NCBI GenBank assembly: GCA_964016885.1
Contig: OZ024741.1
Span: 265,794,001 to 265,858,000, forward strand
DNA: 64,000 bases
Source: Eledone cirrhosa
Lineage: Eukaryota
Reading direction: 5' to 3'
Shown here: positions 20,999-47,215 of the stretch, in pieces
Position numbering within the stretch: position 1 is the first letter of the stretch
Layout: every line of letters begins with the position of its first letter
Notes under the pieces: model-generated
Database searches by the model: none
Seen by the model: the letters and a program-made list of their open reading frames with translations, nothing else
Told to the model about the DNA's origin: nothing
Translations under genes and position numbers: made by a program

Positions 20999-21195
20999 AT
21001 AGGAACCAGTAAGACCCCGACGGCTGAGCTCAAGCCGTTTCGACGGCTAATTCCGTCCAGAATTAGCCGTCGAAACGGCTTGAGCTCAGCCGTCGGGGTC
21101 TTACTGGTTCCTATTTACCACTCTACTACCCTAAGTATTGAGTACTTTTGGTGCGTTATGGTCCACCTGGTTCCTTACCACATTTCCTTCGTTAT
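20999..21195 (+). mobile_element. PLE remnant: perfect 55-bp-arm palindrome centred on HHR stem II, plus tail
   Basis: Arms 20999-21053 and 21060-21114 with a 6-nt loop. Contains gccgtc-GAAA-cggct..agccg-TC-gggg. The tail recurs at 44757-44830, 46811-46880 and 47019-47098 (-). Confidence 0.75.
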
Positions 21196-24100
21196 ATATA
21201 TATATATATATATATGTGTGTGTGTGTGTGTGTGTGTGTGTGTGTGTGTGTGTGTGTGTGTGTGTGTGTGTGTGTGTGAGTGTGTGTGTGAGTGTGTGTG
21301 TGTGTGTGTGTGTGTGTGGGTGGGTGAGTGTATGTATATATTAAAAATTATGAACGGTTTTCTGAATTATATTTAAATAAAGTACATAATACATAGAAGG
21401 GTCATATTTATTTCATATAGAAATAGCTTCTACAGGACTAGAACTGTTTCCGGACATTCCTGATGATTTCATACGAATGAAATAGTTATATATGAAATAA
21501 ATATGTAGTTTCAGTTCAACGGTATTCTGTTCGTAATCGCACGTAACACATGTTTCGCAAATGACCAGCTTTGAGACTTAATCGGTTACAATGAGCTCGA
21601 CTGTTGGATCAGACGCAATGGAGATTAGTATTGGCATATGATCGTCTTACCAACAAGCTCTCTCTCTTTCTCTCCGCCCCCCCCTCTCTCTCTCTCACCC
21701 TCTCTCTCTACGTATAAATATATATATATATATATATATATATATATACAGACGCTCGGCTCACAAACACACATTTATGTATGTATATATATATATATAT
21801 ATATATACATACATAACTGTGTGTTTGTGAGCCGAGTGTATATATATATATATATATATATATATATATATATTTATATATACATACTTAGACACACACA
21901 CACACACACACACACACACACACACACACACACACACACACACACACACACACACACACACACACCTATATATATATATATATATATATAAACTTACATA
22001 CATATATATAATAAACACACGTGCATATATACATATATGATTTCTCTACATGTTTCGTCTTTCGTCATTGCATCTTCATTCCTTTCCTTCTATTTCCCTA
22101 TCTGTTTCATTCATCCATTTGTCCGTCCTTCCTAATTTCTTTCATTTATATATTTATTTTATCTTTATTTATAGATTTTTATATTCTTTTATATGTATTC
22201 TACATTTACATATGTATATATTATACATATTTATATATAAGTTATATATGTATATATATATATATATATATATATATATATATATATATATATATATATA
22301 TATATATATATATATATATATATATATACATATATTTATATATATATATTTATATATATGTACACACATATATATATATATATATATATATATATATAAT
22401 ATATATACATACATATATACATATAAACATATATTTATATATATATATATTTATATATATATATATACATATATATAAATATATATATATATATACACAC
22501 ATATATATATATATATATATATATACATATATATATATATATATATATATATATTTATATATATATACATATATATAAATATATATATACATATATATAT
22601 ATATATATATATATACATATATATATATATATATATATATATATATATATATATAATATATATACATACATATATACATACATATATACATATATATACA
22701 TATAAACATATATTTATATATATATATATATTTATATATATATATATATTTGCATATATATATATATATATATATATATATATATATATATATATATATA
22801 TATACATGTACGTATATATATGTATTACATTTAATTATATATATTCTATATTAATCCCGACATCATGTTCTACTTTTCACACTTCCCTCTATCTTCTTGC
22901 TTTTTCTCACCAATATATGTATATATATATTTTTACGTTCGTTTGTGGTTTTTGCTGTTTGTATTTCAAATTTTTTTATCATTGATATATATATATATAT
23001 ATATATATGTATACACACACGCACATACACACACACATATATATATGTATATATATATATATATATATATATATATATATATATATATATATATATATAT
23101 ATATATATATACATATACATACATATATATATATATATATATATATATATATGTATGTATACACACACATATATATATATGTATATGTATATATATATAT
23201 ATACATATACATATATATATATGTATATGTATGTTTGCGCGTGATTACGTATTTTCTCTATGTACATTCCTTTGCATGCACATTTAAATGTGTATATATA
23301 TATATATATATATATATATATATATATATATATAAACATATATATATATATATCTATATATACATATGTATATATATATATATATATATATATATATATA
23401 TATATATATATATATATATATATATATATATATATATATATATGTATATGTATGTATGTATGTATGTATGTATGTATGTATGTATGTATGCATGTATGTA
23501 TGTACGTATGTATGTATGTGTAGATGCGAAGGTTTGCTTCATGCACGACTGACGAACTTAGTGAACAAGCAAATTTCAGTGACTTTCAGTTTAAGAAAGT
23601 AATATGGCGACGATAGCGACGCGAGGAACAAGAAGACATCGACTGCAATTGACGTCCGAACAATGAATGTCGACTCTCAAACTTCTAATTAATTCGGAGT
23701 TCTTTTGCCGATCTCTTAATGTTCTTTTCTCGTCAGGTTGTCAGGGCGAACTTATCTCCTCCCTTTCTCTCTCTTTCTCTCTTATTTTCTCTCTTCTTAT
23801 TCTCTTTCCTTATTTCTTTCCCTTTTTTTTTCCTTCTCTGTTTGCTTTTTATTGTTAACATCCCTTCTTTCGTCTCTGTCTCTCACTCTCTCTCTTTCGT
23901 TTCTCCTTCTATATTTATGACACACTCTCTCTCTCTCTCTCTCTCTCTCTCTCTCTCTCTCTCTCTCTCTCTCTCTCTCTCTCTCCCCTCTTCATAGCCG
24001 ACCACTCCGATTGCATACATATCTTTCGCCATTGCCGATAGTTTCTTTGTGTTTAGCTGCAAATCACATATATACATATATACATATATACATATACACA

Positions 24101-24839
24101 GATATGTGTGTGTGTGTATATATATATATATATATATATATATATATATATATATATATATATATATATATATATATATATATATATATATATTATATAT
24201 ACGAATATTTATGTATAGATATATATATGTTTATTGCAGATGGTTAAATGTGTATGCATATATACACACTTATGTATGCATATATATATATATATATATA
24301 TATATATATATATATATAAATATATATATATATATAAATATATATATATATGTGTGTGTGTGTGTGTGTGTGTGTGCGGGTGTGTGTGTGTAATTATATA
24401 TACATGTGTATGTATGTGTGAGTATGTGTGTCTTTGCTTTTTTCCTTTTTCATCTTTCCCCGGCCACTTATCTTTCCCAGAACAATCGATCTACCAGAAC
24501 GTCCTCTGTTGTTCGCATGGTGTTTCACCGACAGATCAACAGTTGGTAATGGAGATTTGAAAGTCTTCTTTAGACTAATCATCAAATAAAGCAGCGTTCG
24601 AGTGCGCACGCGCCTCTATGCATCTATTTAACCAGCGTTCCTACCGTAATTTCCACAAAAGCGCCAACACCTTCACCTCCTACACTACCCCCCGTCCTCC
24701 AACGTCAACAACGACGACGACGACAACCTCCTTTAACAACAGCAGCAGCAGCAGCAGCAGCAGCAGCAACAGCAACAGCAGCAGCAACAACCAGTAATAC
24801 AAACACATATCTAAATCTAGCAACAACAACCATTATAAA

Positions 24840-26300
24840 TACACAACTAACAACAACAACAACAACAACCACAGCAACTGTCACCACTACAACTACACAA
24901 CTAACAACAACAACAACAACCACAGCAACTGTCACAACTACAACTAACAACAACAACAACCACAGCAATTGTCACCACTACAACTACACAACTAACAACA
25001 ACAACAACAACCACAGCAACTGTCACAACTACAACTAACAACAACAACAACCACAGCAACTGTCACAACTAACAACAACAACAACAACAACCACAGCAAC
25101 TGTCACCACTACAACTACACAACTAACAACAACAACAACAACCACAGCAACTGTCACAACTACAACTAACAACAACAACAACCACAGCAACTGTCACCAC
25201 TACAACTACACAACTAACAACAACAACAACCACAGCAACTGTCACAACTACAACTAACAACAACAACAACCACAGCAACTGTCACCACTACAACTACACA
25301 ACTAACAACAACAACAACAACCACAGCAACTGTCACCACTACAACTACACAACTAACAACAACAACAACAACCACAGCAACTGTCACAACTACAACTAAC
25401 AACAACAACAACCACAGCAACTGTCACCACTACAACTACACAACTAACAACAACAACAACAACCACAGCAACTGTCACCACTACAACTACACAACTAACA
25501 ACAACAACAACAACCACAGCAACTGTCACAACTACAACTAACAACAACAACAACCACAGCAACTGTCACCACTACAACTACACAACTAACAACAACAACA
25601 ACAACCACAGCAACTGTCACAACTACAACAACAACAACAACCACAGCAACTGTCACCACTACAACTACACAACTAACAACAACAACAACAACCACAGCAA
25701 CTGTCACAACTACAACTAACAACAACAACAACCACAGCAACTGTCACCACTACAACTACACAACTAACAACAACAACAACAACCACAGCAACTGTCACAA
25801 CTACAACTAACAACAACAACAACCACAGCAACTGTCACCACTACAACTACACAACTAACAACAACTGAATGTGAATGAATGTAAACAGCAACTACTATTA
25901 CTACAACAACCGCTACAAACACAACAACAACAACAACCACTACAAACACACAACAACAACAACAACCACTACAAACACACAACAACAACAACAACAACAG
26001 GAACCACTACAAACACACAACAACAACAACAACAACAGCAACCGCTACAAACACACAACAACAACAACAACAACAGCAACCACTACAAACACATAACAAC
26101 AACAACAACAACAACCACTACAAACACACCACAACAACAACTACAACAACAACAACGAGAACAACCACTACAAACACACAACAAACACACAACAACAGCA
26201 ACAAAAAACACAACAACAACAACAAACACACAACAACAACAACTACAACAACAACAACAACAGTAACTACAACAACATCTCCTATTGCATCATCATCATC
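24840..26300. repeat. (AAC)n-based compound minisatellite
   Basis: Units of aactaacaac..aaccacagcaactgtcac(c/a)actac, followed by (aac)n-cactacaaacac units. Confidence 0.9.
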
Positions 26301-46329: not shown

Positions 46330-46665
46330 AGTATTAAGGATACTATTTATGGTTATGTATATACTAAAACCTTTTATAGTTATATATATTTTAAACCGTA
46401 AATAGTGAAAGACAGTAATTTATTACTACCTTATTACCAGTATCTTTAATCTTTGTATGTAAATTGCCATGCTATATTATTATAATGGATGTCAACCCAC
46501 TGTGCATCAATATATACATATGTTTCTATGTCTCTTGTGTTGGAAAGGAGGTCATGTATGTAAAAAATCATTGAAAAATTCTCCGAAGACTCCAAACCTC
46601 GGTTTGGAAGAAACAATTGTAAGCGAATAAATGGTTTAAACAGAACTTTGATTCATGTAATTTCT
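46330..46665. mobile_element. PLE pLTR pieces with CCGAAGA hammerhead (46579-46625 +)
   Basis: ct-CCGAAGA-c-tccaaacc[tc]ggtttgga-a-GAAA-caattg-TA-ag. An inverted tail lies at 46330-46441. Confidence 0.7.
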
Positions 46666-47018
46666 ATATATATATATATATATATATATATATATATATA
46701 TATATATATATATATATTTATATATATATATATATATATATATATATATATATATATATATATATATATATATATATATATATATATTTATATATATATA
46801 TATTTATATATAACGAAGGAAATGTGGTAAGGAACCAGGTGGACCATAACGCACCAAAGTACTCAATACTTGGGGTAGTAAAAATTACTTTCTAGCTGCT
46901 TAACGTAATTTTTAATTTTACGTCGAAACGGCTTGAGCTCAGCCGTCGGGGTCTTACTGGTTCCTATATTTATATATATATATATATATATATATATATA
47001 TATATATATATATATATA

Positions 47019-47215
47019 TAACGAAAGAGGAGTGCTAAGGAACCAGATGTACTATAACGTACCATAGTACTCAATACTTAGGGTATTAGAGTGGGTAATA
47101 GGAATATATTTAACCCCGACAGCAGAGTTCAAGCCGTTTCGACGGCTATTTCTGGACTCAGAAATAGCCGTCGAAACGGCTTGAGCTCTGCCGTCGGGGT
47201 TAAACATTTTCCTAT
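47019..47215 (-). mobile_element. PLE remnant with palindrome centred on HHR stem II (47098-47215)
   Basis: Same family as 20999-21195, in opposite orientation and with a different loop. Confidence 0.75.

What the first reader, a model, noticed from the sequence alone, without database searches (positions are those of the whole stretch)
20999..47215. PLE 5' inversions pivot on the hammerhead stem-II hairpin
Seen: at 20999-21114 (perfect 55-bp arms) and 47098-47215 (same family, opposite strand, different loop), the symmetry centre is the stem-II loop. The CUGANGA side is replaced by a mirror of GAAA-stem III-UH-tail. Similar geometry occurs in unrelated families at 6567-6646, 31568-31704 and possibly 36860-37172. 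Inference: nascent cDNA snaps back on the stem-II hairpin and self-primes second-strand synthesis. This would give the ribozyme a second, DNA-level role and generate genomic palindromes.
Basis: partly seen in the sequence, partly recalled or inferred. Interest (0 to 1): 0.72.

Follow-up and report, generated by a model that had tools for sequence, protein, structure and literature searches.

The report
Penelope palindromes mark RNA 5' ends
These hairpins are real stub insertions of an abundant Penelope-like jumping gene, but they do not turn on the ribozyme's stem-II loop: they are two head-to-head copies that likely each ran off the front end of the element's RNA (its predicted capped start, or in a minority its predicted ribozyme cut), which would explain how this class builds its mirror-image ends.

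Summary
The palindromes at 20999-21114 and 47098-47215 are real stubs of a Hydra-clade Penelope-like element (37,160 exact motif hits; full-length copy found). Each has one arm with a 79-nt tail and one without, in (TA)n. Breakpoints cluster sharply, but 10-21 nt upstream of GAAA, in the 3' strand of stem II, not at its loop. Of 54 young two-arm junctions, none keeps the native loop; the tail arm is longer in 20 and the other arm in 20; half have centres of 2 nt or less. Snap-back on stem II is therefore not supported. In the four other families checked, a window arm keeps the core. Best reading: two cDNAs, primed on both ends of one break, ran off the RNA 5' end. Ends at initiator-like A's carry an extra G (18 of 27 against 11 of 46 elsewhere), and 137 palindromes centre at the predicted ribozyme cut, often with a single A/T. 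Terminal micro-fold-back may join up to about 40%. There were no RNA data. The scan reached this reading before on other DNA; my six paper searches did not find it.

The parts
20999..21053 (-). Family A tail-less arm (cDNA started at +43), covers -11..+43 of the hammerhead region
   Evidence: reference L071/L072
21054..21054 (.). One non-templated base at the junction
   Evidence: same junction in L129 and L124
21055..21193 (+). Family A tail arm (cDNA started at +122): stem II 3' strand from -16, GAAA (21072-21075), stem III, GUC with predicted cut after 21094, stem I 3' strand, 79-nt tail 21115-21193; (TA)n on both sides
47020..47158 (-). Family A tail arm, ends at -17 (the main edge, an initiator-like A)
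47159..47215 (+). C at 47159 (cap-derived or native -13, ambiguous), then tail-less arm -12..+43
   Evidence: same junction as L257 and L291
46812..46967 (.). Family A non-overlapping inversion: inverted tail piece 46812-46879, filler 46880-46921, tail-less arm -2..+43 at 46922-46967; one folding cDNA could not make it
44756..44832 (-). Family A tail-only stub, no partner
31505..31704 (.). Family B palindrome; minus (tail) arm keeps stem I and CUGAGGA (31629-31635), plus arm starts at about 31639
6539..6730 (.). Family C degenerate inversion; plus arm keeps CAGG and CUGAAUG (6603-6615)
36842..37170 (.). Family D asymmetric inversion; plus arm keeps a UUGAAAA core (36997-37003) and the about 110-nt stem II region; short fold-back insert at the junction
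31180..31265 (.).

Best explanation
[quoted passage not shown] Shown: family identity; the two fixed 3' ends (+43, +122); the sharp 5' edge at -10..-21 in both arms; the minor class ending at +24; arms that share the same subfamily variant; junctions with 0-2-nt overlaps or templated inserts. Inferred: the edge is the capped transcription start (A at -17, also -12 and -21), inside the 3' strand of stem II, so the mRNA would carry no complete 5' ribozyme; +24 ends come from ribozyme-cut RNA; long copies come from read-through RNA; the two cDNA 3' ends are joined by microhomology end-joining, in part after a short fold-back at a cDNA tip.
For: Two-cDNA layout: of 54 young junctions with both ends in -10..-22, the tail arm is longer in 20, the other arm in 20, equal in 14 (rho 0.21, p 0.13); older set 19/16/7 of 42. 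In 13 of 88 older insertions the tail-less arm reaches -11..-20 while the tail arm stops at -1 or downstream. Frangieh 2024 shows a PLE nicking and extending both strands from two internal start sites that bracket the tail, with a predicted dimer. RNA-end run-off: 67 of 100 young tail arms end in -10..-21, none in -22..-109, 10 beyond; genome counts fall from 29,849 (-17..+3) to 6,774 (-27..-7), while intact copies match these patterns 23 and 17 times in 31. Arms joined to plain (TA)n start at the same place (L271, L275, L328, L134). Non-templated G before A-starts in 18 of 27 against 11 of 46 at other ends (p 4.8e-4). 137 palindromes centre on the predicted cut; in the first 50, 42 have no native base beyond +24. 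One-base spacers are A/T in 13 of 14 at +24 and C/G in 7 of 8 at -17 (p 3.5e-4). Long arms pair with long partners (11 against 3), and arms share the variant 8-mer in 29 of 40 against 8.4 when shuffled. In family E the edge lies 30 nt downstream of TATAAATA.
Against: No RNA data place the start. The ends spread over 12 positions, and equal ends occur in only 14 of 54, so trimming or several starts must be assumed. A cruder tally that kept ambiguous junctions showed no G excess at -17 (6 G, 7 C, 2 A). Some G's come from both arms of one locus, and in L300 and L307 one of the two could be fold-back product. 20 of the 42 +24 cases are blunt CCCC/GGGG, which CG microhomology at +23 would also give. 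Family B ends are diffuse (-9..-65), and the G signal is weak in family E. The TATA-like word of family A lies in a stem strand and may be forced by pairing; I found no DPE match (motifs recalled). Samples come from the first 75 Mb of one contig and favour young copies.
Confidence: 0.66

Rival explanations
1. One reading: one nascent cDNA snaps back on the ribozyme's stem-II hairpin and self-primes the second arm.
For: Family A centres fall within the stem-II region. The antisense DNA of intact stem II folds well (-7.7 and -10.2 kcal/mol, z about -3.3). One locus (L171/172) centres near the native loop and L024 keeps it. Arkhipova 2013 read junction palindromes as self-priming.
Against: None of 54 young centres holds the native loop; no young arm ends in -22..-98; the tail arm exceeds the other by 3 nt or more in only 14 of 73; 13 of 88 loci have stem II only on the tail-less arm; families B-E keep the core.
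Confidence: 0.03
2. Two cDNAs, but both stall at an RNA structure or a bound protein inside stem II rather than at an RNA end.
For: The edge lies inside a predicted helix; the ends spread over 12 nt; no transcript data exist.
Against: A stall would act on each arm separately, yet long arms pair with long arms (17 head-to-head pairs among the 100 hits listed) and +24 arms with +24 arms. The extra G at A-starts is not expected. RT passes the GC-richer stem III and outer stem II. In families C, D and E the edge is at the front of the ribozyme.
Confidence: 0.13
3. Mixed route, compatible with the best explanation: after run-off one cDNA tip folds back on a 3-8-nt micro-loop, and the sense copy anneals to the partner cDNA.
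For: 21 of 54 young junctions have 3-8-nt loops, with recurrent TGGACT (4) and GACT (2) loops; short inverted inserts at junctions (L044, L126, L303; window 36987-36996); both window copies fit.
Against: 27 of 54 have loops of 0-2 nt, too tight for priming. The longer arm is the tail arm in 9 and the other arm in 10, so two cDNAs are still needed. The pairing is unrelated to native stem II.
Confidence: 0.35
4. Longer palindromes were trimmed at the centre after insertion.
For: Central deletions in palindromes are known (recalled); loopless and asymmetric centres are common.
Against: The youngest copies (near 100% identity) show the same edge; partnerless arms start at the same bases; trimming gives no extra G and no pile-up at +24.
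Confidence: 0.05
5. MITE or other DNA-transposon family with no PLE link.
For: Short inverted arms in TA context.
Against: The arms are the pLTR of a full-length element with an RT and GIY-YIG-type ORF; centres differ from copy to copy; the tail is on one side only.
Confidence: 0.01

Closest known systems
Insertion units of EN+ Penelope-like elements (Craig et al. 2021, PMC8557442, passages read)
   Same: Partial tandem pLTR, adjacent inverted 5'-truncated copy, tail at one end only, hammerhead in the pLTR, (TA)n target.
   Different: Here most insertions are 200-bp stubs whose two arms end at one narrow site; the tail is 79 nt, not 30-40; the passages seen map no breakpoints.
Hydra clade of PLEs (PMC8557442, section 11 passage)
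   Same: RWR for RWK, DKT, CxCX5C linker, CxxC and CxH round the conserved E and N, C-terminal EN, (TA)n.
   Different: Unit about 3.5 kb (the clade is generally under 3 kb); U3-A8 core and 53-55-nt stem II; no tree built here.
Anolis Poseidon PAc in vitro (Frangieh et al. 2024, PMC11167929, main text read)
   Same: Two internal RT start sites bracketing the tail, both strands nicked and extended, AT-rich targets, predicted dimer.
   Different: They saw no RNA reads ending at the ribozyme cut and cleavage was dispensable; here a minority of genomic copies end exactly at the cut. In the text read they did not analyse inversion junctions.
Adineta vaga Penelope palindromes and the self-priming hypothesis (Arkhipova et al. 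2013, PMC3846280, passages read)
   Same: Head-to-head palindromes at the inverted junction; TATA- and Inr-like words in the pLTR.
   Different: They proposed self-priming on an antisense template; the arm statistics here need two cDNAs.
L1 twin priming and cap-derived 5' G (recalled, not from a call)
   Same: Second target end primes a second cDNA; microhomology at the joint; extra G at full-length 5' ends.
   Different: In L1 the two cDNAs cover non-overlapping parts of the RNA; here they overlap and start at two fixed sites.

Membership tests
EN+ Penelope-like element | Single ORF with a PLE-type RT | tested here: met
   788-aa open frame with FDIESYY, MGATDS, YRDD, NFLDV. Pfam gave no hit on it; 308 homologues, one of the 120 listed carrying PF00078.
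EN+ Penelope-like element | C-terminal GIY-YIG endonuclease | tested here: inconclusive
   VIY...YIG motif seen; Pfam GIY-YIG only E 0.069, below the cut-off.
EN+ Penelope-like element | pLTR tandem, inverted 5' copy, one-sided tail | tested here: met
   L071, L072, L080; 72 of 90 tail-anchored loci have an inverted partner, and both arms carry a tail in 2 of 88 insertions.
EN+ Penelope-like element | Target-site duplication | tested here: inconclusive
   Flanks are (TA)n, so no TSD can be read.
Hydra clade | RWK-like motif, DKT, CxCX5C linker, CxxC and CxH, (TA)n target | tested here: met
   RWR, SDKTG, CNCPDRSIC, CNLC, CKH read by eye against the paper's list.
Hydra clade | Phylogenetic placement with named Hydra elements | not tested
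   No tree built; the paper's supplement was not read.
Type I hammerhead ribozyme | Three-way junction with core, GAAA and NUH | tested here: met
   Intact copies fold into the junction (z -0.4 and -2.2); core mostly UUGANAA (U3-A8), CUGAGAA in one subfamily. No hammerhead among the 150 Rfam rows shown of 312 for the window.
Type I hammerhead ribozyme | Self-cleavage | not testable with these tools
   Indirect only: pile-up of arm ends at +24.
Stem-II snap-back product | Centre holds the native loop or the stem-II 5' strand | tested here: not met
   0 of 54 young junctions; rare exceptions L171/172, L024, L161, L163, L167.
Stem-II snap-back product | Tail arm contains the whole second arm | tested here: not met
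   Tail-less arm longer in 20 of 54 and 16 of 42.
MITE | Fixed internal sequence, TIRs with TSD, no retroelement link | tested here: not met
   Variable centres; arms are PLE pLTR.

The most novel reading that the evidence does not exclude
The stubs are a genomic record of the element's RNA 5' ends at base resolution. Family A starts transcription inside its own ribozyme, so the mRNA lacks a 5' cutter. A dimeric RT writes two cDNAs from one RNA, or from one source's RNA, into both ends of one break. About 1-3% of insertions copy ribozyme-cut RNA, which would be in vivo evidence that a U3-A8 PLE hammerhead cleaves. The same read-out would map start sites and cut sites for any PLE family from genome sequence alone.
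Probability: 0.55. Interest if true: 0.68.

Novelty: new variant of a known kind. Interest (0 to 1): 0.5.

Why it matters
How PLEs form inverted ends, and what their hammerheads do in vivo, are stated open questions (PMC8557442, PMC11167929). The arm statistics separate self-priming from two-ended priming without an experiment, give exact predicted start and cut positions to test by CAGE or in vitro, and suggest that tens of thousands of hairpins in this genome are by-products of internal RT initiation near the RNA front. The architecture itself is known, and the proposed DNA-level role of stem II does not hold.

Tried and rejected
Rfam scan of the window: only microsatellite-driven miRNA matches and one weak other row among the 150 rows shown. 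Pfam on the full ORF: no hit. First cap tally with ambiguous junctions: no G excess; refined. Four ends scored -24 (L086, L100, L109, L119) are over-extensions on AATT and were not counted as reaching the loop. L060/61 and L096/97 are one insertion each (90 loci, 88 insertions). L056, L127 and L128 carry an internal deletion and were left out of the 13. In one search, neighbours at L333, L341, L344 and L346 were judged by eye to be separate insertions and dropped, and about half of the 50 long arms had no inverted partner within the fetched DNA. The second Fisher value printed used overlapping sets and is not used. A DPE or MTE match downstream of -17 was looked for by eye with recalled motifs and not found. 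MITE origin and post-insertion trimming were rejected (see rivals).
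Full report
Observation. A scan of the whole window recovers 20999-21114 (55-bp perfect arms, 6-nt centre), 47098-47215 (4-nt centre), 31568-31704, and an unlisted palindrome at 31180-31265; BLAST shows the looser inversions at 6567-6646 and 36860-37172. The first two contain GAAA, stem III and GUC of a hammerhead and lack the upstream core. A 29-mer from this motif has 37,160 exact hits in the genome, the reversed control 0. Among the first 100 hits I count 19 head-to-head pairs with spacers of 13-46 nt and none between 47 nt and 3 kb.

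What it is. Upstream of intact copies lies the end of an ORF with a VIY...YIG motif (Pfam E 0.069). Locus L071 holds a whole element: inverted tail-less arm, pLTR, tail, 788-aa frame, pLTR, tail, (TA)n. The protein shows RT motifs and the marks that Craig et al. list for the Hydra clade: RWR, DKT, CxCX5C, CxxC and CxH, with (TA)n targets. Pfam does not hit it and I built no tree. Intact copies fold into a type I hammerhead with a core that is mostly UUGANAA and a stem II of 53-55 nt. With 0 at the C of CGAAAC, the native loop is at -22..-25, the 5' strand at -26..-53 and the predicted cut after +23. In nearly every two-armed insertion one arm ends at +122 (79-nt tail) and the other at +43, matching the two RT start sites that bracket the tail in the Anolis element, which also nicks and extends both strands (PMC11167929).

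Breakpoints. In 90 loci picked only by their tail (88 insertions), 44 tail arms and 50 of 72 partner arms end in -9..-22. In 100 loci of the youngest subfamily, 67 tail arms end in -10..-21, none in -22..-109 and 10 beyond; partner arms peak at -17 (18 arms). Genome-wide, a 21-mer spanning -17..+3 has 29,849 hits and one spanning -27..-7 has 6,774; intact copies match them 23 and 17 times in 31, so the drop is about threefold after correction. Clustering is real, but the mean centre is -15.1, short of the native loop.

Test of snap-back on stem II. The antisense DNA of intact stem II does fold, so the idea was reasonable. It predicts that one arm keeps the loop and part of the 5' strand, and that this is the tail arm. 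Of 54 young junctions none keeps the loop; the tail arm is longer in 20, the other in 20, equal in 14; the older set gives 19, 16 and 7 of 42 (the two sets share some loci). In 13 of 88 insertions only the tail-less arm reaches stem II, as at window 46812-46967. Half of the young centres have 0-2 unpaired bases. A few loci do reach the loop (L171/172, L024, L161, L163, L167).

Other families. Family E (31,714 hits): arms end a few bases upstream of CUGAUGA, most 79 arms shown keep the core, and the 20 pair spacers listed are 21-57 nt against about 12 for a stem-II pivot. Family B (6,583 hits): the window's minus arm keeps CUGAGGA, and ends spread from -9 to -65. Family C (988 hits) and D (1,631 hits): the window's plus arms keep the core, and ends gather near the front of the ribozyme, judged by eye on 30 loci each. 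The stem-II position is thus particular to family A. I did not confirm an ORF for families B-E; their PLE status rests on hammerhead, one-sided tail and (TA)n.

Why the ends stop there. Four results point to RNA 5' ends. (1) The edge bases -17, -12 and -21 are A's in initiator-like words, and in family E the edge lies 30 nt behind TATAAATA (motif names recalled); D. virilis Penelope starts transcription in its pLTR (PMC2377424, passages). (2) In unambiguous junctions a non-templated G precedes A-starts in 18 of 27 arms against 11 of 46 elsewhere (p 4.8e-4); a cruder tally showed no excess, and some G's come from both arms of one locus. (3) Three of 100 young loci have both arms starting exactly at +24, the predicted cut; genome-wide 137 palindromes of one subfamily centre there, and of the first 50, 20 are blunt (ambiguous with CG microhomology), 13 have a single A/T, 9 have other non-native inserts and 8 have native extension (counted by hand). 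One-base spacers are C/G in 7 of 8 cases at -17 and A/T in 13 of 14 at +24 (p 3.5e-4), as expected for capped and uncapped ends. (4) The arms are coupled: long arms have long partners in 11 of 14 scored insertions, and arms share the variable 8-mer in 29 of 40 against 8.4 when shuffled. No transcript data could test this directly.

Mechanism. Shown: two fixed start points, a shared sharp edge, coupling of the arms, junction microhomology and templated inserts. Inferred: a dimeric protein cuts (TA)n, primes both ends, starts at +43 and +122 near the RNA front, runs off after about 60 and 140 nt, and the two 3' ends are joined. Transcripts starting at -17 would lack CUGANGA-side bases and so a working 5' ribozyme; read-through RNA gives long copies and, when cut, +24 copies.

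Comparison and novelty. The architecture is known (PMC8557442, passages); junction palindromes were read as self-priming by Arkhipova et al. (PMC3846280, passages); PLE hammerheads are described in PMC4209133 (passages); a 2026 preprint on retrozymes has no passage on palindromes. Six searches found no paper mapping PLE inversion points to transcription starts or ribozyme cuts; subscription papers and all supplements were not seen. The scan reached the same reading on other DNA of this genome and on other genomes; those notes are unchecked and not independent support, and I had recorded the reading before seeing them. Verdict: observation partly confirmed, stem-II mechanism not supported, a testable two-primer run-off model preferred at 0.66, interest 0.5.

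Noticed in passing
L011, L013/L059, L056, L127, L128: A recurrent 23-nt deletion between the two GCCGTC repeats removes GAAA and stem III from one arm; it looks like RT skipping the stem III hairpin.
   Followed up: partly
L045/L234, about -17: An arm starting at -17 is joined to sense 3'-UTR sequence, which could be a template jump from the RNA 5' end to another RNA.
   Followed up: no
L082 and other intact family A copies: Core variants UUGAGAA, UUGAUAA, UUGAAAA and UUGACAA (U3-A8), and CUGAGAA (C3/A8 mismatch) in one subfamily; family D also has UUGANAA.
   Followed up: partly
window 36997-37110 and L403-L432: Family D has about 110 nt between the putative core and GAAA, an unusually long stem II region; not folded.
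   Followed up: no
L060/L061, L096/L097: Two of 88 insertions have the tail on both arms.
   Followed up: no
window about 1465 (-) and 4062 (+): An identical 105-nt context lies on opposite strands 2.6 kb apart, a larger inverted repeat with a CUGACGA...GAAA word.
   Followed up: no
window 7070, 14364 (-), 57504; 7620-7960; 21419-21490, 52824, 57658: Further hammerhead-bearing stubs of three families (F, G, E), with 5' ends upstream of the core in most.
   Followed up: partly
window 20790-20950: A dispersed SINE-like repeat lies just left of the first palindrome and recurs in many fetched loci; it resembles cephalopod SINEs (recalled, not tested).
   Followed up: no
L161, L163, L167, L169: Several arms, mostly of the T subfamily, end at about -43..-47, possibly a further minor stop.
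   Followed up: no
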